NCBI GenBank assembly: GCA_002633005.1
Contig: NMRA01000386.1
Coordinates: forward strand, 324,032-388,031
Length of the DNA stretch: 64,000 nt
From: Phoronis australis
Taxonomy: Eukaryota > Animalia > Phoronida
Direction: 5' to 3'
Part shown: positions 464 to 53,700 of the stretch, piece by piece
Position numbering within the stretch: the first letter of the stretch is position 1
Layout of the letters: every line of letters begins with the position of its first letter
Position numbers and translations under genes: made by a program
The notes under the pieces: generated by a model
Database searches by the model: none
What the model saw: the letters and a program-made list of their open reading frames with translations, nothing else
Told to the model about the DNA's origin: nothing

Positions 464-19147
<18,684 letters not shown>

Positions 19148-22063: not shown

Positions 22064-25000
22064 ATGGCTGATGTCAAGTCATTTCTCTATGCTTGGTTGG
22101 GGAAGCAGAAAAAGACCCCGCAGTATGAAACCAAACCATCGGGCCCCAAACACAAACAGAGGTTCATGTGCGAGGTAAGATTGTGTCTTTGCTGTTATTT
22201 TCCTGTTTACTGCAGTCGTGGTTCACTCTTGTCATCGGAAACCCTGGAAATGAGTCTTAAATGACTCGTAAGGAAACTCATGGAAAGTGAAAAAGAGCGT
22301 TGAACTGTTACGACTGTGCCATTAAAATTATTCCTTTAGTGCAGTGTATTAGCGTGTAGTGGCACCGAAAACTTCTGTTGTGTGGGGGAACAATGAGTCG
22401 TGGCTGAGTGCTGTTCAAAACTTTAAATCGTAGGGATAAAGAAAATATGAGGAATGGAACCAGTAGTCATTCTAAACTTCTGTTATTGACTAGTAAATTC
22501 TTTGTAATTAAAACGTCATTAAGTATATGCCTTGATAATATACCAATAGAGTTTTTGAACTATTCACTCATGATTTAGAGTCTCCTGAGTTATTGCCTGA
22601 ATATTAAACAATCAACAGAGGGCACTTATTTGCTTTTCCAGATCAGAGTGGATGGTATCCCCTACGTGGGTGTGGGTAATTCAACCAATAAGAAGGATGC
22701 TGGAACGAATGCAGCTCGGGACTTCTGTTCACATTTGGTGCGCACTGGCATGATGAACTCCGCCGAGGTGCCTAGCCTGAATGCGGTAGGTGTCAGCAAT
22801 CAGGGCGTATGCCCTGCTCCAGTGATGCACTGAAATTCCAGGTTGCGTATTGTGATGTCTAAGTATTACATAAGTCTCACCTGTATTATTGACTAGGAAG
22901 TTGATCCATTCTAGGCCTGTATTTTTGAAATGAACCCTCAGTATGGAATTGATTCGGAAGCTACATTAATCTTTGTCTTAATATTCACTAGGTGGTGCTA
23001 ATGAATGAAGGCTGCTGTTTTTAACACAAGAATAGACTGAGAGCCGAAAACAGTTGATCAGCATAGGCTGGGCTAATGGTCCAATGTAATTACAATACGT
23101 GATCGTATGAATTTCTGTAGGTCGGACTGTTATTGCACTGGTGCCACCTACTGAGTTAGTCGCCCATGCTTCGGAAGCTCGTGATTTCTTATTTTGTGTC
23201 GTTGTCAAACAGTAGATAATTTTGATTTGCACCATAGGTCCAGCCATCAGAGTTGACATCGGGAGCGGTAGGAGAGAGTGCTTTGCCCGGCGGGTTGGCC
23301 ATGCCTCACGAGAAATTGGGACTGAATGTTGGTGAGTTCTGGGCTCTGCCATTCTCGAATCTTTGTCTACACACTGCAGGTGTGTTGTTAAGTATTTCTG
23401 ATCACAGTGCTATGGATGGTCACATGATGTTTATGCACCTCGGTGCTTGTCTTACATAGTTATCTTATTTTATGATTTAATTGTATTATTGTGTACGTAT
23501 GCTATTTTCCTTGAATTGTATTTTTCTCTGGGCCCTCCTGGATGCCAGTGCTGTGTTCTGTAGAATCAATTCATTAGCCATGCATTTAGTGCTGTGTTTC
23601 GTAGAGTCAACTCATAGCCATGCAGTTGCGTTGCGAAATGTTTGCTTATAGAAAAGAAACATTAAATTCTGCACAGTAATTCATGAATTGTATTCCATAT
23701 TCCAACATTCCAACCTCACCATCCACCAATCTCTTCAAGTAATTTGGCGAAAATGGGTTTTTAATGTACATCTTCAGTGACGTCAGTTTTGCTCCAATAG
23801 ATATCGCACTATTGACATGTTAGTGACTGGATACGTTAGTTGTGAAGTGTTATTATATGTCGTGTTATCTTTGAAAACGGTTGTCTGATAATATGCTGGC
23901 TGTTACAGGTGATGGTGATAGTGGATCAGGGTTCAATGATGGACCAGGATTCAACACTGGAACGCCCTCTGATGGCCCATATCAAAGACACGACATGCCT
24001 CACATGACATTTGAAGAGAGAATTGCTGAAAAACGTAAACTCGAGGAGGTAAGTGGTTAGGGGAAGGGTGCTGTCGTCTCCTCAGGGATTAATTTTTCAA
24101 TAAATTCAAATTTTAATCCTGGACCAAAATATTTAATTCTGATTATATGTTAAGACCTTTTTGTCAATATGCAATTGGTATGCAAATCAACTGTAAACCA
24201 TGTATGTAACATAATTGTATTTTAGTCATCAAAACTGTTGTCTTGCTTATTTCACATCTTTCATTGCAAAGAATATGTCAAAACTGTTTTCTTTTGTTAG
24301 AAATCTCTGTTCACATAGTAGATGTCTATCATCTAGTGTTGCTTTCTAGTCTGAGGAGGTAGATTTCACTGCCAATATCCATGGCAACTGGACGATGGAG
24401 AACGCCAAGAGTCGTCTGCACCAATACATGCAGATGAATCGGATACAGACAGATTACAAGTACTCTATGGTTGGACCGGACCACAACAGGTAGATAGTCT
24501 GACTTACACTACATATGTCATGTGAAAAGACTGTTAAAACAGCCTGTGTTACTACTGGTATCAGGAAATACTATACATACCAAATTTGTTGGACAAAATT
24601 GCTGTTTTCCTGTTATGATGGCTTATTGCGCTTACACTGGATGTGGCTGTCAGTGTGTCACCACCGTGGTAGAACCCTAATTGTATTGTTGCGTTTCTAC
24701 AATACTTTCGTGGAATTTGTCTGCTGTTCCTGTCCTGATGGGCAGTNATTCGGAAGCTACATTAATCTTTGACTTAATATTCACTAGGTGGTGCTAATGA
24801 ATGAAGGCTGCTGTTTTTAACACCAGAATAGACTGAGAGCCAAAAACAATTGATCAGCATAGGCTGGGCTAACGGTCCCATGTGATTATGTGATCGCATG
24901 AATTTCTGTGGGTCGGACCATTGTTGCACTGGCGCCACCTACTGAGTTAGTCGCCCATTCTTCGGAAGCTCGTGATTTCTTATTTTGTGTCGTTGTCAAA

Positions 25001-28000
25001 CAGTAGATAATTTTGATTTGCACCATAGGTCCAGCCATCAGAGTTGACATCAGGAGCGGTAGGAGAGAGTGCTTTGCCCGGCGGGTTAGCCATGCCTCAC
25101 GAGAAACTGGGACTGAATGTTGGTGAGTTCTGGGCTCTGTCATTCTCGAATCTTTGTCTACACACTGCAAGTGTGTTGTTAAGTATTTCTGATCACAGTG
25201 CTGTGTGGATGGTCACATGGTGTTTATGTACCTCGGTGCTTGTCTTGAATCGTTATCTTATTTTATTATTTAATTGTATAATTGTGTACATATGTTGTTT
25301 TTGTTGAATTGTATTTTTCTATGGGCCCTCCTGTATGCCAGTGCTGTGTTCTGTAGAATCCATTCATTAGCCTTGCAACCAGTGCTGTGTTCCTTAAAAT
25401 CAATTCATTAGCCATGCATTTATTGCAGCCGTGTTTCATAGAGTCAACTCATAGCCATGCAGTTGCGTTGTGAAATCTTTGCTTATAGAAAAAAAACATT
25501 AAATTCTGCACAGTAATTCATGAATTGTATTCCATATTCCAACATTCCAACCTCACCATCCACCAATCTCTTCAAGTAATTTGGCGAAAATGGGTTTTTA
25601 ATGTACATCTTCAGTGACGTCAGTTTTGCTCCAATAGATATCACACTATTGACATGTTAGTGACTGGATAGTTAGTTGTGAAGTGTTATTATATGTTGTG
25701 TTATCTTTGAAAAGGATTGTCTGACAATATGCTGGTTGTTACAGGTGATGGTGATAGTGGATCAGGGTTCAATGATGGACCAGGATTCAACACTGGAACG
25801 CCCTCTGATGGCCCATATCAAAGACACGACATGCCTCACATGACATTTGAAGAGAGAATTGCTGAAAAACGCAAACTCGAGGAGGTAAGTGGCTAGGGGA
25901 GGGGTACTGTCGTCTCCTCAGGGATTAATTTTTCAATAAATTCAAATTTAATCCTGGACCAAAATATTAAATTCTGATTATATGTTAAGACCTTTTTGTC
26001 AATATGCAATTGGTATGCAAATCAACTGTAAACCATGTATGTAACATATATTGTATTTTAGTCATCAAAACTGTTGTCTTGCTTATTTCACGTCTTTCAT
26101 TGCAAAGAATATGTCAAAATTGTTTTCTTTTGTTAGAAATCTCTGTTCACATAGTAGATGTCTATCATCTAGTGTTGCTTTCTAGTCTGAGGAGGTAGAT
26201 TTCACTGCCAATATCCATGGCAACTGGACGATGGAGAACGCCAAGAGTCGTCTGCACCAATACATGCAGATGAACCGGATACAGACAGACTACAAGTACT
26301 CTATGGTTGGACCGGACCACAACAGGTAGATACTTACACATATGAAAAGGCTGTTAAAACAGCCTGTGTTACTACTGGTATCAGGAAATACTGTACACGC
26401 CAAATTTGTTGGACAAAACTGCTGTTTTCCTGTTATGATGGCTTATTGCGCTTACACTGGATGTGGCTGTCAGTGTGTCGTCACCGTGTTAGATACCTAA
26501 TTGTATTGTTGCGTTTCCACAATACTTTCGTGGAATTTGTCTGCTGTTCCTGTCCTGATGGACAGTTTCCATGACAATGAGTTCTGCTTGCGGCCATTCG
26601 CCATGTTCTGGAATTCTGGGTTATTTCGTCTGATATTTTTGTCATGTAGTGTGGGTTCCTCTAGATGTTGCATAACAAGTGCTGAGAAAATTTTTGTTTT
26701 ATATCAAAGGGAGAAATGGAGTAAAAACTATTTTAGAATTTCTTGATTTAATGAGTGCAGTATGCAATTAACCACGTTATTGTGACCACTAGGTGTAGCT
26801 ATGGTCAGCAGGTGATTATGTCATTTACCGACCCAATGGCAACTCAAGCAATAAAAAGATTTTCTTAGCTAACTTTTGTCCTTACTTCTCTCTTAGATTG
26901 AATTTAATGTTTGCAATTTACTTTCTTCTAATTGTTCTTACTGTTCCAAGCGAAGAAAGTTTTGTTACTCTCTAATTGGATTCCCACATGATAGCAATTG
27001 TTGAGGTTAGCTGCAATGTTCTGTTGGTACGCTTTAATGTTGATATGTTGGTTAATGAATACTGTGGTAGTATAATGTTTTAGAGTGAGAAATAACTGCA
27101 GCATTATACAATCCTAGTGTGTGGAGGGTTGTTGTAAGAAGTACCATCAAAGGCCCTTAGGGGGTGCTCAAATTGAATGTGGTCTCAGACTGATATTAAC
27201 ATGAATATGATAATCAGGTCATGACCTCTTTTGACCTGCTTAATGTGGTGATGGTGCAGATCATAAGAGGTCGTGTTGGATGCTTTTACCCACGGCAAGC
27301 AGTTCACATAAGACAGGTGTGGTTTGAAAGTCTTTGTGTGTTATGTGGAATCCATTTGTACCCGGGGGACAATACACTCGCGTTTGGTAGCGAGTTTTAT
27401 TGTGGAGAATTCTAACATGTGATTTTAACGATTTCCCATAATGCAACTGGCTCTGAGTTGTTTCTTGCGAGAGTCGGAAGCAGTTTTTGAGTTTGAGAAG
27501 AACTATTTGTTATTGCTTGAGACTCAAATTGATTACATACACAAGATTGTGGTTTTTGTTTTTGATGAATTTTGTCTGAAAAAAGGATATTTCTCATTTT
27601 CAAGTGACAATAAAATAAGTAGTACATAGACCTTATATTTAAATGATTGTGTTTTATGTTGCAAAAAGCTATAATGAAAGATAAGGACAAGTTACATAAT
27701 GTTGTCCTGGAAATATGAAATAACATACCACTCAAGAACATTTTAGATCCAAACCAGTGGTTTTGGGGTTTTGAAGCTTTGCTGTTCTGTTGGATACCTG
27801 TTTTCTGAGAACGCAAGAGTTTTCTGTAGAGATTTCCAGCTTAGAGGTGAAACCTTGACCATGCGTTGTTCTGCACTGCTAATGAGGCTTTGCTGTGGAT
27901 TTAATCTGATGGTGTTTGTATTCTGGCCCATGTTCTAGTTTGTGGGAACGAGGGTTAGAATATCAAACCTACTGTTTGTGCCTTTTTAATAGAAGACTGA

Positions 28001-31000
28001 TAAGTTTTATTACCTGGAACTTCTGAAAGTCCATAACCTAATTTAAAAAATGTAAATGTGGCCGACTGGTTTGATTTCTGCCTGAAATAAATATTTTAAA
28101 GGATTTCTACAATTTCTCAAAGTGAACTGTGTAATGCTCAAACGAGGTTTTGTTAGAGAGAGCTTGAAAATTTCTATCTTTGTGTATGGAGCATGGAATG
28201 TGTTTGGCACAGAAATGTCTTCAACTTTGTTCTCCCATCTTCGGGTGTACCCCTAAGCAGAGCCTCGTTATCAGACCAGTAAAGAACCAGCCGACTGATG
28301 TTCAAACAGACCACAGTCGGTTGTCACAAAGTTGCCTTTACAGTGTTTGGTGTAAAGCACATTTGTGACTCCGTCTTGGCTGTGCCTGAAAGCGTTCACC
28401 ACTTCCTGATGTATGGTTTCGTCATACAAGTGGGGAAGTGGGCGTGTGTGCACTCGAAAGGCTGGTTCTTAACTGATCTGACATTTCTTTTTGCAAGGTC
28501 AAGGTTTCTTGTTTAAGGTCATTGCCATGGTGATGTTGCTGCTCCTGGTGACAGGTATGGAATGTGCTTTGACATTTATATGTACCCACATTATATGTGG
28601 GTACATATTGGGGTCATTTCTTTCTGGGTGTCCTGTGTCTGGTATGCCCTTTAGTGGCTATTCGATTTGTTTAAAGTTAGTCTCTGAATCAACCTAGTAC
28701 CTTGAGGGATTTTTAAAAATTTGACAAACCTGTCGTTTTCGATATGATGACGCTACATTTGCAATTTCGAATGGATTTGACAAAGTCTGACCAGCTACTG
28801 AATGTTTTTATTATTTTTTAAGTCTGCTTTTGGTGTCTGTCTCTGTTGGAGAATCTTCTCAAAAGTTGGCAAATGTTCTCATATTGAATAGAATTTCATA
28901 CGGCCAGTGCTAGTTTTCAGAAAAATCTATTGTTAGTGTCTTTTTGAGACAATTTTAGTCGTCTTTGCGTTTTCTTCAACAACTATCATATTCTTTGCTA
29001 AGTGTTTATGAAATTTGCGTGTTGTTGTATTGGAGATAGCTCTACTCTGATGGAATTTAGTACAGTTCCAATTACTGTGGCGCCCCTAAGTGGCCGTTTT
29101 TTGTTCTGCCCCAGTACCTACCAAGTTCTTGTGTGGATCATAGCTGGTGTCAATTTTTAGTCAGATCTCAGTACTGCAGTGCCCCCTTGTGGCAATTCGG
29201 GTTATCTTCGCATTTTTCCTCATATCTCTCAAAGCTCTATTTGGTTCATCATGAAATTTGACTTATGGCTTCTAATAGAAGTTGACATGTGGTGCCCCCT
29301 ATTAAGAAACTGTCACCACATCTACCTCAGTATCTACCAATTTTCTGATGTATCCTCGTGAACTTTGATGTACATGTTGATACAGAGGAGAGCACAACTG
29401 ATAATGGTTTTTGACTGGATCCAGTTGCTGTGGAAATATTTGACTGACGAAGACCCTTGCATTGGTAACGTTCACGATGCACACTGTAGGCACATATCAA
29501 CACTGTCTTGTTCAGTAAGGCTCAAGTGCTGTTATGGGGTTTTTTCATTGTAGGGAATCATACTGCAGCAAGACCTTGAATCTCTGATTACTCAGAATAT
29601 TTTTTTCAAGTGAAAATGCGGGCACTTTTGGAAGTCTCAAAATCTTTGACTGAGATGAACCAATTTTGAGGCCGCACTCCTGCCTTAGCTCAGTCATGGA
29701 AATGATGAAACTTTTTTTTAATTCTTATTTCAGAATTTGAGTTCTTTATTGTGACAAACACAAAATCAATCCAAATCAAGGCCCGCTACGGAAATTCATT
29801 CGTGTCCCAACGTAATAGCTACTGTGCAATCTCTTATTAATTGTCAAATGTGAGATTTGGATAAAACTACCCTCTGTTTTGTTAACCTTGGCCGTCTCAT
29901 CAATGGTTATTATTTATTGGTTCTTGGTTAATTGTTGATTAGTGTACATACTCACCATAGCAACGTGCTGGATAAGTCACTGTATATTGCTTACCTGTTT
30001 GTAGGAGCTTTATTGCTGAGATGTCCATCTTTGTGAAACAGTTGAAGAGAAGTGAGTTTATTATTCCATTGACACTTGACAGTCTCTTTTAATAGTTAGT
30101 TAACATTCACGTTGGTGGTGGAAGTGCATTAAATTTTCTTGCGACTTCTCTGATAATTAATTATTTTTGCCCTCTGTGTTCAGGCTGTTGTGTGGTACAT
30201 GGAAAAAGTTGTGATCTTGTTTAAAATGAATTGTGACATCTAACAGGGTCTTGATTATATCCAAAATTGGCTGACTTTGGAACTTCAATGAAATGGCTGA
30301 TTGGGTTCGAATGAAATTTTCAGATATTATGTGTTATGCCCTGTTCAGCTACATGCTTTTAGGAATTGTTTTAAAATGGGCTATGAAAATATGGGACTTG
30401 AATGATTTTGTTAAAGAAAATTAAATGCTACTTAAAACAGAGATGAGGTGATTTTTAGAAAGATTTTGTACCATTTTTGAGATTTCATTTTGAACATTAT
30501 ATCAAATAAAATTTGGTCATGTTTACATTTGTTTTGTCATGAATGAACCTGTCCTTTTTCCTAAGTTGTTCTAAAAAGATGTCACCCAATGAATGACTGG
30601 TTGGTAGAATTAAAAATTGATTGAACCGAAAATACAGTGTCACAAAAAAAGTTAATTTTTATAATTTCGTCTAGCTACTTGGCTAAATGCTTTGTATTCA
30701 TGGAATTTTTGGAATTTGGTTTTGGCTGCAAGAATTTAACTGTAGTCTGCAAGCAATAGTGTATTTCTTATCAGCAATTTTCTCTCAACTTCCAGACCTC
30801 ACGGGAAGAGAGCACGGCTCCAACAAACAGATGGCGTCAAAGTCATGCGCTCTGTCATTGGTCAGACAGCTGTACCACATGGGTGTCATTGAGCCATTCA
30901 CAGGAGAGAAGAAGAAAAAGGATACTGAGCAGGTGAGAAGTCTTGTTTATGATTAGATGGTGTAGCTCCACCCTCTGCCCATTTATGATGAGACAGTGTA

Positions 31001-34000
31001 GCTCCACCCTCTGCCCATTTATGATTAGACGGTGTAGCTCCACCCCCTGCCCATTTATAATTAGATAGTGTAGCTCCACCCTCTGCCCATTTATGGTTAG
31101 ACAGTGTAGCTCCACCCTCTGCCCATTTGTGATTAGAAGGTGTAGCTCCACCCTCTGCCCAATTAGGATGGCAAGGATGGACAAGGCTGATTGAGAATAG
31201 GAATGGTTGTGCTTACAAATCTTAAACGTCTTTCGCTTGACTCAGTTTCCAAAAGTTGACTGGGATGAAAATGTAATTTCTGTTTTACACAGAAACTTTG
31301 AGATATTTGTTTAGAGAATTGCTTGAATACCCCATTGCAGTAGCAATTCGACAGCATGATGGTTGCAAAGAATTTATGGAAAATGCTCATTGAAAATAAC
31401 CCACTGCAGTGAATGTGCATAAGAATGCAGAATGGTTTCAGCCATTTACCGCATCACCATCTAGTGACAAGGTCTATTTCATTGTCAACAATATAATCTG
31501 GGTTTTTCCGTACATGGTTTGGACGGTGGTCTACTTGGCGCCAATTGTTCTATCAGTATATTAGTTTTTGTGGGGATGAGCTCAGATGCCACAAAAGATT
31601 CTGTTCAATTACGTAGTTGTCTTTGTCAATTCTTTCATTATCCTGCATTGTGTCTGTATTCTGGTTTCTAAACACAGATGAAGCCCTACAACGTGTGCCT
31701 AGCCCCTGAGGTGAACTCACAGCTGACCTCTCTGTTGGAAACCCTGGGAGTTGAGCCCGTGCCTCAGGTAAATTTGTTGATCAGCAGTATAATATTATTC
31801 ATTGGGCGGCCATCGACCAATCATGTTGTATGCTGTCATGACTTAGTACATGAGAAGTAACTCCTGGCTATCACCATCAGTGTCACCACTATACAATAAT
31901 ATGCAGTATTTTCATAATGCTTCAGAGCAAGCTATGTGTGCATATTTATTTAGAATAATTGAATTTTAATCACGTGTGGCTATTTGGAGATTAATAGTAT
32001 AAAGATTCGAATTCAAGTTCAAATTTTAAAAATCATTCACTCTGTTGTGTTATTCCTGCAGTATAAGTATGTCATATTATTAATTATGAAGTAACCAGTT
32101 TTGCCCACTAGAAATTTTATTGAATTGAATGACATTCTACTATATTTTAGTGCAGAAAAGTTTATGCAAAGTGTTTTCACCAGTGACAAAGAAAAGTCAA
32201 ATTCAATGTTTTACCATCATCTTAACGTCATGCATTTTCTGTTCTATTGTTTATGTTGTTGTTGTAGGGCAATGACCCCAGCCAGGCGGTCAGCTTAGCC
32301 GTCCACGACCCTCTGGCCCAGTTTGACCCCACAGCTCGCCAACAAGCCATGGTGGTGCCCTGGTCACCACCCACGCCCAACTGGAACCCCTGGACAGCCT
32401 GTAACCTGGATGAGGGGCCACTCGCCTTCGTAAGTTGAGATGCATGATTGGTTTATTCTCAAACCAATGATTTCGAAGAAAAATACAGTCTAATGATAGA
32501 CCATTTTGGGGTAACTAGTCAGCATTGTGGCTTAGAGTTTTGTGGAATGGTTATAAACCATGGGTGCCATTCACACGTAACAGGCCTTTTGAAATTGGCT
32601 TGCAAGGTGAGTGAAAGTAGTTCTTTGTGAACACTGCTCTTGGTATACAACAGTCCTAGTTGGCCTATGTAAGTAGTTTAAGAAAAGGTTTATGGTCCTG
32701 GTTGAGAAAGCAATGTTTTATTACCCCTTGTGGTTCAGTGAATAGCCCAACCCGGAATTCATGATAATTACTATGTGTAGTTAAATGTTCAAGGGATCCT
32801 TGCAAATCGTTTTTTGTTAAACTACTTTTATTTTTAATTTGTCAGGTATTTGTTATAGGCGTGAATGCGATCCTTACATATTTTGCTCATTCAGTATTTG
32901 TACAGAAATTTTGCGGCAGTACTATATCCTTATTTGTTCCGTCTATTGTGGTGACAAGCCATTAAGGTATTGCATTTAACAAGTTGTAATTACTCGTGAA
33001 ACGGAGAGATTTTCACATTCACCATGCCAAAATAATCAGATAAAATGACGTGGAATGCCTGTCAGGACATTTGTTCCAAAGCATAATTCACCTTCAGGGT
33101 AACTAGAACGACTAGTGGAAACAGTACGTTGTCAGATTTCTTTTGGGATGTACTGTAGTTGCCTTTTTCTACTTTCCATATTGCATTGCATAGGCCAGCA
33201 TGGAGCAAATCAGTCAAGACCTCAAATCGGGACTCGACCGTCAGATGTCTGAGGATGCCCACCTCAAGCAGATGATAGACGAACGGTCCAATCTGCCTGT
33301 TTGGAATTCACATGATGAGCTTATGGACGCCATCTCCAGGAACCCAGTGACACTAATCCGTGGCCAAACTGGCTGTGGAAAGACCACTCAGGTGCAGTAA
33401 CTTATAGGGTGTCCGAGACTGTGAGACAAGTTTGAAGCAGCTCAAAACTTGTACCATTTTAAATGTAGTTTTCAGTTGTTTGGTTTTGGGAAACAGTTGA
33501 GACAGTTCTTAGGCCCGAGAACAACTGATACTTCATTGCTTAGATCAGGCTCGATAAGCTTTGTTATTTTAAGGGCCGAGCATGGTCAACACAGCTGAAC
33601 TGTCAGTCCTTCCAAATCCCGGAAATCATTCCTTATCTGAGTTAGGAACAATTCGAGACAAATTTTTCGGTTGCTTTGCCATCTCAAGATAGGAAAACTA
33701 TTATTTGCTGTGTCGGCTATTGTCATTTCTAGGATATTTGAAATTATTGTTCAAACAAACACTTGTGTTGCCTGTGTGCTTAATGAATAGGTAACATGGA
33801 ATAAAAGTTCTCTAATTTGGGACATGAAAAAAAAATAAATTATTTTGCTCAAGGCCGGAGCCAGTCCTAAATTCTAGAAGTAGTTGCAATATTGGCTGTC
33901 CCAATTCAAGATTGAAATTTGAGAAATATGGTGAATGCCAAAATTGCTCTTGTCCCAAATTCCAGCATGAAGAAAACATAATTTTTGCTGATCCAGGAGT

Positions 34001-50701: not shown

Positions 50702-53700
50702 TTATTCTGTTTCCATAACATCGAGCGAGCTTGATACCTTACAATCATCATATTGTGACGATTCATTTTGCCGGTCACAATCACTTTCACCGGGAATTTC
50801 ATCAGACTGCCTGGTGGTCACATGTTCATTCATACCGACATTTGGACTAGAGGTGACGGACAGTCCCTTGTGTGAGGTGTGATAGTGTCTCTTCATGGCC
50901 TTCACAGACTTGAAAGTACTATCGCAGACGGGACAAGGAATTTCTTGGTTAAAGTGTGACTGCCGGTGTTCGGCTAGGCATGCTTTCCTGGCGAACCACC
51001 GATTGCAGATATCACATTGGTGTTGCTCCCCTGTGTGTTCACCGTGTTTGTTGGCCCGATGTACTAAGTAGTTTTCGCGTTGCATAAACATGGTGCCACA
51101 GACTTCGCACACTGCTGGATTCTTTAACTTGCTGCTAGAAGTCATGTGACTTTGTTCCACATGATCAGACAGCTGATTGATGAGGTCGAAATGGACTGAA
51201 CAGATTTTACATTTGTACGTCTTCAGGGACTGAGACGACATGGCTGAGGTGCATCTTAACTCAGGTACACATACTTTGCAAGAGTGAGGCTCCTCGCCAG
51301 GCGTGGCGTGTGACGTATTAAGGTGTTTACACCTATCGAGAGCGCATTTGAATCTTTCACCACACTTCATACACTTGTATACGAACGTGCGAGTCTTCAC
51401 ATGCTCCAATCGCTTGACATTAGTTCCACAAACGTGCTCGGCTCGCTCTTTGTCTGTCGCGCAAAGCACTTTACATTTCGTGCACTTGGTTTTTTGATTC
51501 AGCATCAGGGAGTCCTTCTGTGTACAACTAGATTCGTGACTGCGGCAGCTCACTTGGTCTACAAAGCGACAGCCGCATACACTGCAAGGGTACGGCTTCT
51601 CACTTGCACTGCAACTAGCCTGGTGGCTTATACATTTTGCCCTTTTGACAAAACTGACACCACACACTCCGCATTTGTAAGAGTTGCGCAGTCCACATTT
51701 CGCCTGGTGTATAGTACGGCTATCGTTCTTCACAAAGCCACGGCCGCATTTGATACACTTGTACCGTCGCTCAGTCTCCGGCACGTGATAGCGCTTGTGA
51801 GCTTTCAGCGCAGATGCGCTGACATATCTTTGACCACACGTGTCGCACACAAATGGCCGGTAGCCCGTGTGCTGGCGGTAGTGCATCTGGAAATGCTGGT
51901 ATCGTCGGAACTGTCGGCCACATTGGTCGCAGCAGAAACTCTTCGTTCCCGTGTGTGTGCTCTCGTGCTCCTCCAGGATCATCTGGGTTCGGCACGGCAG
52001 TCCACACTCGCGGCACTTGTACTTTTTCAGGGAACGGTGTTTCTTAGATGTATGCTGGTAGAGCTGTTTGAAGGTGCTAAATGTTTCCCCACACACGACG
52101 CATGTGGTTGTGTCCTGGTGGTAGACCATGTGCGCCATCTTGTGNACACTTGTACCGTCGCTCAGTCTCCGGCACGTGATAGCGCTTGTGAGCTTTCAGC
52201 GCCGATGCGCTGACATATCTCTGACCACACGTGTCGCACACAAATGGCCGGTAGCCCGTGTGCTGGCGGTAGTGCATCTGGAAATGCTGGTATCGTCGGA
52301 ACTGTCGGCCACATTGGTCGCAGCAGAAACTCTTCGTTCCCGTGTGTGTGCTCTCGTGCTCCTCCAGGATCATCTGGGTTCGGCACGGCAGTCCACACTC
52401 GCGGCACTTGTACTTTTTCAGGGAACGGTGTTTCTTAGATGTATGCTGGTAGAGCTGTTTGAAGGTGCTAAATGTTTCCCCACACACGACGCATGTGGTT
52501 GTGTCCTGGTGGTAGACCATGTGCGCCATCTTGTGGCACTCGTAGAAGAAAGTCTGGGGACACATTTCACATGAGATTTTCTTGCCATGCACGATGCGCT
52601 TATGTGCTTTTAGACTGACCGAGCTGCGGAAACCTCGGTCACACTCGTCACATTTAAATGGCATTTCCTCTTTCTTAACTTCCAAACGGTTCAAGAACAG
52701 GCCCGGTTTTGGCATGATTTTAACTGGAGTGCGCCCCACTGCGGGTGATCCATTCTTGACACTCCTGGATGCCCGAGCAGGTGTAAACACCATCGGAGTG
52801 CGAGGTGTACTGACACCAGCCACCGATGGTTGCGCAGATGTCAAGATAATCTGACCCGGGTTGACAGTCATATTTGGTAATACCGTTCCAGGTGGCAGCA
52901 AGATGAACCGTGATGTACTTGCTGACCCCTGTGATGTACTTGCTGACCCCTGTGATGTACTTGCTGACCTCTGTGATGCACTCGAAGACCCTCGTTGATC
53001 AACCATAAAGTTTTGCTTACGTTTTGCCTTATTTAGCCTTGTCACTTTTATTTTGGCCGCCCGACCACCTGCGTTACGCTTAGCATAGTCATGCTCAATA
53101 AAGTCCTCAGGTGCAGCAAAATTAACTGGCTTCCTGTCGTGATGAAAAACACTCCACATTTTACCTTCCCCGTATGGCTGTTTACTTTGCACACACGTTC
53201 TTAAATTAACACCATCCACAGCCTGGCCTCTAACCAGATCTATCATTTTGTGTTTCTCCTCCACAACTGAGACTGGTGTCTCCAACGTGTTCAATGTGTT
53301 CACCTCCTTATCCCTAACTCGTAGGTGACCCTCATGTTGAGTCATGCCATGTTCCCCTTCGTTCATCTGGAGCAGGTCGTTGGCAGCAGCAGCTGACTTC
53401 ACAGGTGTTGGGGAATATTTGTCCGACACCTGCTGACGTTCACTATTGTGAAATCGAATCACATTCATAACCAGGTCACCAGGTGGCTCTGTGCTCAGCG
53501 AGGAGTTGCGAACATCGCGAGGGCAAGCGGGAGCTTCTAACTGGCCGACCATTGATCTGTTTATATCAACATTAGTCTGTTTTGGCCCAGAGTGGTTGGC
53601 CTCGTCATCCTGAAAGAAGATTAGTTAAAAAACTGTCATTCCCTCATTAACTTTCTTACCAGCAGAGGTTCCATTAGGATTAACGGCAAGTCTTATGAAC

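What the first reader, a model, noticed from the sequence alone, without database searches (positions are those of the whole stretch)
27794..28558. About 770-nt nested multibranch RNA structure in the DHX9 intron orthologous to the human poison-exon intron
Seen: an outer stem ATACCTGT 27794-27801/28551-28558, extended imperfectly, encloses GAAACCTTGACCATGC 27849-27864/28493-28508 (15/16). That stem closes a three-way junction of two abutting stems, 27880-27894/28256-28270 (15 bp, two G-U) and 28271-28292/28460-28481 (20/22). The first arm contains further nested helices (~27943-27960/28220-28237, ~27974-27982/28206-28214, ~27983-27996/28146-28160). The second contains three hairpins (28291-28320, 28323-28369, ~28392-28445). 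Many non-canonical positions are G-U on the sense strand, and I saw no TIR/TSD, unlike the DNA foldback elements elsewhere in the window. Established: DHX9 binds and unwinds dsRNA via two dsRBDs and a DExH core. Inference: the helicase's own pre-mRNA carries a large dsRNA substrate that could act as an autoregulatory sensor of DHX9 activity, or as an ADAR target, controlling splicing of the nearby cassette exon.
Basis: partly seen in the sequence, partly recalled or inferred. Interest (0 to 1): 0.85.

Follow-up and report, generated by a model that had tools for sequence, protein, structure and literature searches.

The report
Folded RNA hides DHX9 stop exon
An intron of an invertebrate gene for the RNA-unwinding enzyme DHX9, at the same position as a known human self-destruct exon, is predicted to fold into stems that bury the splice signals of a likely 57-base stop-carrying exon, which would let the enzyme throttle its own production by unwinding them, although use of the exon has not been seen.

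Summary
The core fold is well above chance (z about -5.5; best of 30 tiles across the gene). Three stems are predicted at p>=0.91. The outer stem is marginal, and the inner first-arm helices and one hairpin are not supported. The intron is the counterpart of the human exon 6A intron: the human junction primer shows the same codon phase.

New here: the cassette most likely lies inside the fold, at 28498-28554 (57 nt, in-frame TAA). Its branch-point-like motifs, AAG acceptor and donor (joint best of 290 GT sites) each sit in a helix; only the U-rich tract is open. A 33-locus animal clade with unalignable sequence has the same layout, with near-invariant splice sites and a stop or frameshift in 15 of 15 exons.

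Against: no inclusion junction was listed beside 35 skipping reads, the acceptor is weak, the antisense strand folds equally well, no close relative was available for covariation, and a cross-lineage test gave P=0.07. ADAR editing is unsupported; control by DHX9 is inferred.

The scan noted similar DHX9 clamps before on other DNA. Closest tested analogue: the plant DEAD element.

The parts
26186..26325 (+). DHX9 exon ending ...GPDHN + 2 nt (counterpart of human exon 6)
   Evidence: Junction reads; homology to DHX9/MLE proteins; human primer at the same phase
26326..30004 (+). Host intron, 3679 nt; longest of 19 mapped DHX9 introns (most 300-870 nt)
   Evidence: 35 junction reads in 3 runs; intron list
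27794..27801 (+). P0 5' arm: exact complement of the candidate donor (-4 to +4); marginal helix
   Evidence: 8 of 8 pairs; p 0.07-0.79 by context and temperature; post hoc chance of this 8-mer in a 60-nt slot about 0.001
27849..27864 (+). P1 5' arm; pairs with the candidate acceptor and the first 11 nt of the exon
   Evidence: p 0.91-1.0 at 37 C
27880..27894 (+). P2 5' arm (pairs with 28256-28270)
   Evidence: p 0.99
27918..27963 (+).
   Evidence: p 0.95
28256..28270 (+). P2 3' arm, abutting P3 at the three-way junction
28271..28292 (+). P3 5' arm; pairs with the branch-point-like motifs
   Evidence: p 0.95-0.99
28323..28369 (+). Hairpin in the second arm
   Evidence: p 0.99
28399..28441 (+). 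Hairpin in the second arm
   Evidence: p 0.99
28460..28481 (+). P3 3' arm carrying branch-point-like motifs CTTAAC, CTGAT, CTGAC (branch consensus recalled)
   Evidence: Sequence; mean unpaired 0.22 over 28468-82
28482..28492 (+). U-rich pyrimidine tract, predicted single-stranded; possible helicase loading site 3' of P3 (inferred)
   Evidence: Unpaired 0.88
28493..28508 (+). P1 3' arm carrying AAG acceptors that end at 28497 and 28503
28498..28554 (+). Candidate poison exon, 57 nt (51 nt from the second AG), in-frame TAA at 28514-28516; not seen spliced
   Evidence: Translation R-S-R-F-L-V-stop; no inclusion joint listed
28552..28560 (+). Candidate donor CAG|GTATGG, paired either in P0 or in a local hairpin
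   Evidence: Joint best of 290 GT sites; unpaired 0.09-0.28
26897..27316 (+). Rival cassette candidate upstream of the structure (420 nt, stop at 26973)
   Evidence: Acceptor with branch motif and 16 of 18 pyrimidines; donor at 27317 ties for best; its region folds at only z -1.55
30005..30051 (+). Next constitutive exon (47 nt)
   Evidence: Junction reads on both sides

Best explanation
The DHX9 intron is predicted to fold into nested stems that bury the branch-point-like motifs, acceptor and donor of a likely 57-base stop-carrying exon (28498-28554), so the exon would normally be skipped and would be used, sending the mRNA to decay, when the stems are opened, likely by DHX9 itself. Shown: the intron and its skipping junction, the complementary segments, the splice-like motifs, the in-frame TAA and the shared position with human exon 6A. 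Predicted: P3 pairs the branch motifs, P1 the acceptor, P0 or a local hairpin the donor, and the U-rich tract between P3 and P1 stays open. Inferred: DHX9 binds the helices through its dsRBDs, loads on the open U-rich tract 3' of P3 and unwinds; inclusion truncates the protein inside dsRBD2 and triggers nonsense-mediated decay, a negative feedback loop. My odds: a selected structure controlling a poison exon in this intron about 0.7; this exon about 0.5; DHX9 as the opener about 0.3.
For: (1) The fold is far beyond shuffles and best of 30 tiles. (2) The donor at 28555 ties for best of 290 GT sites under a matrix from 19 of the gene's own introns (9.3 bits; constitutive leave-one-out 1.0-11.3). 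(3) Branch motifs, acceptor and donor are each mostly paired while the tract is open. Opening the -30 to +2 region costs 23.8 kcal against 5.0-13.1 for 11 constitutive acceptors, which were folded in shorter contexts. (4) Both AAG acceptors lead to the same in-frame TAA; a third AG at 28517 also gives a stop. (5) Same intron position as human exon 6A, an NMD-linked poison exon (passages). (6) Independent clade: of 33 related loci, 20 reach a conserved 3' block; 20 of 20 have a CAG|TA acceptor-like site and 19 of 20 the donor CAG|GTGCGT, the miss being cut by its contig end. In 15 non-redundant loci the 65-93 nt exon has a stop (13) or frameshift (2). Its body is the 3' arm of a long-range helix: 95.6% of 435 cells paired, 5 of 29 pairs with a two-sided change, slid controls 22-45%. 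(7) Picked by hand, L003, L039 and L049 show an acceptor in or at a long-range helix, a stop and a donor; L023 and L046 show 50-nt frameshifting candidates whose body is the 3' arm. (8) A plant helicase gene uses this logic experimentally. The fly orthologue MLE prefers stems plus U-rich single strand, and DExH helicases load on 3' overhangs (passages). DHX9 binds a three-way junction in HIV-1 RNA (abstract).
Against: No joint into or out of the exon was listed beside 35 skipping reads (20, 7, 8); the listing threshold is 3 reads a run and 18-19% of each run was read. Depth over 28418-28579 is 0.95, 0.4 and 1.7, no higher than the rest of the intron. The acceptors are AAG, while 19 of 19 mapped constitutive acceptors are YAG; they rank 18 and 8 of 184 AG sites. 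P0 is marginal at 37 C. The antisense strand folds equally well. No relative aligns to this intron (blastn; profiles of the clade's two blocks list no hit in the intron among their top 12), so this structure has no covariation support of its own and the clade is an analogue, not a shown homologue. The cross-lineage test (strong donor within the top long-range 3' arm or 80 nt after it) gave 9 of 17 against 5.9 expected, P=0.073, with the 80-nt window chosen after seeing the data; control introns gave 3 of 15 against 3.2. L036 has the 5' block but no 3' block in 2957 nt. L057 and L048 do not fit cleanly. 11 of 80 loci lack the intron. Human exon 6A is explained in print by polymerase speed, hnRNPM and SRSF3.
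Confidence: 0.5

Rival explanations
1. The structure is a selected splicing element but acts through other sites or another trigger. The exon could be 26897-27316, 27993-28554 or 26897-28554; 28555 could be a recursive AG|GT site; or the stems could sense polymerase speed or splicing factors, as reported for human exon 6A.
For: The 26897 acceptor has a branch motif and 16 of 18 pyrimidines; donor 27317 ties with 28555; 28555 also ranks 5 of 184 as an acceptor. Run X3 has raised depth at 27932-28255 (10.4 and 8.9). Slow polymerase, hnRNPM and SRSF3 control human 6A. BRD2/BRD3 poison exons respond to structure and elongation rate (abstract).
Against: The 26765-27560 region is not unusually folded (z -1.55) and reads there carry more differences and indels. 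The 27993 acceptor ranks 60 of 184. The X3 bump is absent in X1 and X2. The comparison clade points to a short exon formed by the 3' arm.
Confidence: 0.25
2. The stems are the neutral remains of nested foldback or miniature transposon insertions, and the splice-like motifs are coincidental.
For: Antisense folds as well as sense. A 6-nt direct repeat flanks 27782-28565. The P1 core motif also occurs in repeat-like stretches of L012. The window holds DNA foldback elements. No conservation of this sequence could be shown.
Against: Single copy in the window. No true terminal inverted repeat, and the direct repeat arises in 9% of random tries. No plus-strand first mates over 26150-29713 and none of the 18 shown loose ends (of 48) inside the structure, while repeats at 28591-628, 29162-197 and 30290-375 do attract them. 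The best donor of the intron sits at the structure's end, facing its exact complement. A transposon origin would not exclude later function.
Confidence: 0.15
3. The structure is mainly an ADAR substrate whose editing creates or destroys a splice site.
For: Helices of 15-22 bp with bulges; the A of the acceptor AG (28496) is the one mismatch in P1.
Against: No A>G excess over T>C in three runs; no A>G among listed differences inside the structure. Depth of 0-10 there cannot exclude site-specific editing.
Confidence: 0.05
4. The segment is a separate intronic non-coding RNA (snoRNA-like, microRNA-like or a stable intron fragment).
For: X3 depth bump at 27932-28255; two stable hairpins in arm 2.
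Against: No Rfam match inside the structure at E<=5; the only hit in 26300-31000 is a sub-threshold histone stem-loop outside it. No pile-up of read ends; the bump is in 1 of 3 runs.
Confidence: 0.05

Closest known systems
Human DHX9 poison exon 6A (PMC4741636: passages; PMC7072589: passages and supplement; PMC8652244: passages)
   Same: Same gene, same phase-2 intron after P-D-H-N, stop-carrying cassette predicted to trigger NMD.
   Different: Human 6A is shown to be spliced and to respond to polymerase speed, hnRNPM and SRSF3. The passages read mention no RNA structure or DHX9 feedback ('autoregulat' 0 and 'minigene' 0 occurrences in PMC7072589; one 'secondary structure' hit was not displayed). 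Sequence homology to 6A was not tested. The exon here is not seen spliced.
Plant DEAD element in DRH1/RH46 (PMC12218528: abstract and section 13; bioRxiv 10.64898/2026.01.23.701338: abstract and section 14)
   Same: An RNA helicase pre-mRNA carries a helix over an alternative acceptor; opening it shifts splicing to NMD isoforms as negative feedback.
   Different: DEAD is one 20-bp hairpin over an alternative 3' splice site in a DEAD-box gene, experimentally tested. Here the gene is a DExH helicase with dsRBDs, the fold is a roughly 700-nt multibranch with long-range arms, and all three signals of a cassette exon are predicted paired. No Rfam or sequence relation was found.
BRD2 exon 3b and BRD3 exon 5b under pairs of conserved complementary regions (PMC10789245: abstract)
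   Same: Poison-exon inclusion set by long-range intronic pairing.
   Different: For BRD2 the pairing regions lie in the flanking introns; here the exon itself is the 3' arm. The hosts are not RNA helicases.
MLE remodelling of roX2 (bioRxiv 10.1101/2022.11.11.516098: passages) and DHX9 on the HIV-1 PBS three-way junction (PMC8191761: abstract)
   Same: Substrate shape: stems plus U-rich single strand; a three-way junction.
   Different: These are trans substrates, not the helicase's own pre-mRNA. Binding here is untested.

Membership tests
DHX9 exon 6A-type poison exon | Lies in the intron after the P-D-H-N codons (phase 2) | tested here: met
   Junction reads; human primer
DHX9 exon 6A-type poison exon | Carries a premature stop well upstream of later junctions | tested here: met
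   In-frame TAA at 28514-16; at least 16 mapped introns follow
DHX9 exon 6A-type poison exon | Is spliced into mRNA | tested here: inconclusive
   No inclusion joint at 3 or more reads a run beside 35 skipping reads; low depth, NMD not blocked
DHX9 exon 6A-type poison exon | Isoform stabilised by NMD block | not testable with these tools
   No such data held
DHX9 exon 6A-type poison exon | Descent from the same ancestral exon as human 6A | not testable with these tools
   No vertebrate intron held; no alignment even to other invertebrate loci
Helicase-sensing structured RNA (DEAD-element type) | Lies in an RNA helicase pre-mRNA with a helix over an unproductive splice site | tested here: met
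   Predicted pairing of acceptor, branch motifs and donor; prediction only
Helicase-sensing structured RNA (DEAD-element type) | Conserved with covariation | tested here: inconclusive
   No relative of this sequence; modest covariation in an analogous clade
Helicase-sensing structured RNA (DEAD-element type) | Splicing responds to the host helicase's activity | not testable with these tools
   Needs experiments
Helicase-sensing structured RNA (DEAD-element type) | Single 20-bp hairpin in a plant DEAD-box gene (DEAD family proper) | tested here: not met
   DExH gene, multibranch fold: works like DEAD but is not a member
Foldback / miniature DNA transposon | Terminal inverted repeats and target-site duplication | tested here: not met
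   Ends do not match; the 6-nt direct repeat is at chance level 0.09
Foldback / miniature DNA transposon | Many genomic copies | tested here: inconclusive
   One copy in 64 kb; no foreign reads among those shown; no genome held
ADAR substrate | A-to-G excess on the sense strand | tested here: inconclusive
   No excess, low depth, no matched DNA
Rfam families | Covariance-model match | tested here: not met
   None inside the structure at E<=5

The most novel reading that the evidence does not exclude
DHX9 intron 6 is an ancient helicase-sensing switch kept across animals by layout, not sequence. A short stop exon forms the 3' arm of long-range helices that bury its splice signals; DHX9 loads on the exposed U-rich tract and opens them; human exon 6A is one descendant of this switch.
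Probability: 0.3. Interest if true: 0.82.

Novelty: new variant of a known kind. Interest (0 to 1): 0.62.

Why it matters
DHX9 clears dsRNA and R-loops (recalled) and is a cancer target (listings). Its human poison exon has been explained by polymerase speed and splicing factors. Seven library searches (mostly listings only) showed no paper on RNA structure or self-control at that exon. If the helicase reads its own activity through this fold, animals have a counterpart of the plant DEAD feedback loop, and the exon becomes directly testable with a small minigene and openable with antisense oligonucleotides. The window gives exact coordinates and a predicted loading site, and the L001 clade gives a 15-sequence alignment for design.

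Tried and rejected
No genome is held, so no genome-wide copy count. No RNA holder was listed by the run index; three raw RNA runs were laid once and X4 gave nothing. A finer look at depth, variants and loose ends across the structure was not obtained, so inclusion and editing rest alone.

Searches that found no relative: Rfam, nothing in the structure; look-alike stretches in the scan's other windows, 0; blastn of the intron against 80 DHX9 loci, no real match; clade profiles against the window and other introns, no meaningful hit; a 16-nt pattern in viral contigs, 9 matches with no extension; prokaryote genomes, 3 weak loci, not followed. The bacterial promoter and terminator scan was at chance level and is irrelevant here.

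My first candidate exon, 27993-28554, was demoted: its acceptor ranks 60 of 184 and the helix over its tract has p<=0.07. The cross-lineage donor test was not significant. Splice-site mapping placed 19 of 24 junctions; 5 failed and were left out of the matrix. The supplements of PMC4741636 were not read and those of the bioRxiv papers are closed; they may hold exon 6A sequence or structure data. The label 'annelid-like' for the L001 clade in my notes is a guess and comes from no call.


Full report
Setting. The window carries a DHX9/RNA helicase A gene on the + strand from about 22064 to 47700. The exon-6 peptide matches DHX9/MLE proteins; the best named identities are a brachiopod (85%) and oysters (83%). 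No genome is held. RNA reads from three runs of the same species label define the host intron as 26326-30004 (20, 7 and 8 junction reads) and the next exon as 30005-30051. First mates lie only on the minus strand over 26150-29713, which in most stranded libraries means sense transcription. The intron is the longest of 19 mapped. Of 80 metagenome loci with this exon, 64 have a GT at that position, 11 lack the intron and 5 were unclear.

Observation. The four main stems are present as described. The region folds far below shuffles: z -5.84, z -5.46 for 27845-28512 and z -6.49 for the second arm. It is the best of 30 tiles across the gene. P1, P2, P3 and two arm-2 hairpins have p>=0.91. The outer stem P0 is marginal (0.07-0.57 at 37 C, 0.40-0.79 at 15-25 C). 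The nested helices of arm 1 and hairpin 28291-320 are not supported, and the arm-1 interior folds like shuffled sequence (z -1.23). The antisense strand is as extreme (z -6.58), so folding energy does not pick the strand. Rfam has nothing here.

What the stems cover. The 3' strand of the fold reads as a small exon with its signals. Branch-point-like motifs at 28468-82 lie in P3; a U-rich tract at 28482-92 is unpaired; AAG acceptors ending at 28497 and 28503 lie in P1; and the donor CAG|GTATGG at 28555 is paired in P0 or a local hairpin. That donor ties for best of 290 GT sites under a matrix from the gene's own introns; the acceptors are weak (ranks 18 and 8 of 184; 19 of 19 constitutive acceptors are YAG). 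Either acceptor gives an in-frame TAA at 28514-16. Opening the acceptor region costs 23.8 kcal against 5.0-13.1 for 11 constitutive acceptors folded in shorter contexts. The exact complement of the donor 8-mer lies 48 nt 5' of P1; the post hoc chance of that is about 0.001.

RNA evidence. No joint into the candidate was listed (threshold 3 reads a run; 18-19% of each run read), and depth over 28418-28579 is not raised. That is expected of an NMD target but is no support. Five of the 40 listed differences (of 122) fall inside the structure, all in the arm-1 interior and none in P0-P3, where depth is only about 0-4. Two turn predicted G-C pairs (p about 0.5) into G-U and one breaks a p=0.85 pair. 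The cleanest reads there carry 0-2 other differences against 6-9 at 27032-27123, a weak hint of constraint from few animals. There is no A>G excess. None of the 18 shown loose ends (of 48) falls in the structure, whereas three nearby repeats attract them.

Comparison. No fetched locus aligns to this intron, so covariation of this structure is untested. A clade of 33 loci (L001 and others; host not determined) shares two conserved intron blocks. Twenty reach the second block; all 20 have a CAG|TA acceptor-like site resembling the clade's constitutive acceptors, and 19 have the donor CAG|GTGCGT 33-63 nt after the block. In 15 non-redundant loci the implied exon is 65-93 nt, 9 of 15 are not multiples of three, and all 15 have a stop or frameshift. 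Its body pairs with the 5' block hundreds to thousands of bases upstream: 95.6% of 435 cells paired and 5 of 29 pairs with a two-sided change, against 22-45% paired when slid. Variant cells still pair in 25 of 44 against 0.43 on permutation (0 of 2000 reach it), but relatedness was not modelled and the structure was derived from the same alignment. The donor is in a local hairpin. This is the window's layout in unrelated sequence. Hand-picked candidates in L003 (164 nt), L039 (109), L049 (46, also an AAG acceptor and the same 7-bp helix core as P1), L023 and L046 (50 each) fit to varying degrees; L057, L048 and L036 do not. A formal test across 17 lineages gave 9 hits against 5.9 expected (P=0.073, window chosen post hoc); controls gave 3 of 15 against 3.2. 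None of these exons was shown to be spliced.

Mechanism. The likeliest reading is a structure-masked poison exon. With the stems closed the exon is skipped. When they are opened it is included, and the stop inside dsRBD2 sends the mRNA to decay. DHX9 is the natural opener: the fly orthologue prefers stems with U-rich single strand, and DExH helicases load on 3' overhangs (passages); the one open tract lies immediately 3' of the helix holding the branch motifs; DHX9 binds a three-way junction in HIV-1 RNA (abstract). These steps are inference. Rivals are another exon or trigger (0.25), neutral transposon remains (0.15), ADAR (0.05) and a separate non-coding RNA (0.05).

Relation to known systems. 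It works like the plant DEAD element but is not a member of that family. It shares gene, intron and stop with human exon 6A, but splicing and descent are unproven. It resembles BRD2/BRD3 structure-controlled poison exons (abstract). Seven searches (listings, with passages of four papers read on DHX9) showed no report of structure or self-control at the DHX9 exon. The scan's earlier unchecked notes describe similar DHX9 clamps in other genomes; they are leads, not support.

Verdict. A real and unusual fold, partly as described, most likely hiding a 57-nt poison exon. New variant of a known kind; interest 0.62, and 0.82 if the animal-wide helicase-sensing reading (probability 0.3) holds.

Noticed in passing
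window 22945-24746 and 24741-26566: Tandem duplicate of about 1.8 kb (88-99% alike) covering two DHX9 exons, joined at a single N (24747); probably two haplotypes left uncollapsed. Similar duplicates flank the Ns at 52145 and 62836.
   Followed up: partly
window 26765-27560: Second cassette candidate (acceptor 26896 with branch motif, donor 27317) enclosed by a perfect 12-bp helix 26843-54/27510-21; a helix 26977-93/27339-54 loops out the donor; the region folds at only z -1.55.
   Followed up: partly
window 27932-28255: Read depth of 10.4 and 8.9 in run X3 only, against 2-4 beside it; unexplained.
   Followed up: no
window 28288-28323: A 10-bp local hairpin overlaps the end of P3's 5' arm and could form first during transcription; low equilibrium probability.
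   Followed up: partly
window 28530-28560: The donor site also scores as an acceptor (rank 5 of 184), the pattern of a recursive AG|GT site; L057 intron position 556 shows a pyrimidine tract plus CAG|GTGAGT inside a long-range helix.
   Followed up: partly
L001 clade, e.g. L019:1360-1540 and L019:2090-2190: A conserved structured RNA with near-invariant internal splice sites in DHX9 intron 6 of a 33-locus animal clade; a better covariation target than the window itself.
   Followed up: yes
L024, L025, L026, L033, L034, L042, L051, L054, L059, L065, L067: 11 of 80 loci have no intron at this position, so these lineages lack the proposed switch; a natural control.
   Followed up: no
L003 intron positions 1535-1698: The predicted stop exon is 164 nt, the length an earlier unchecked note (e1-8037745) reports as spliced in another genome.
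   Followed up: partly
window 30910-31197: A 36-nt minisatellite overlaps the end of the exon that closes at about 30932.
   Followed up: no
window 17893-18822: Young foldback element with 99% complementary arms; an older one lies at 4642-5140.
   Followed up: no
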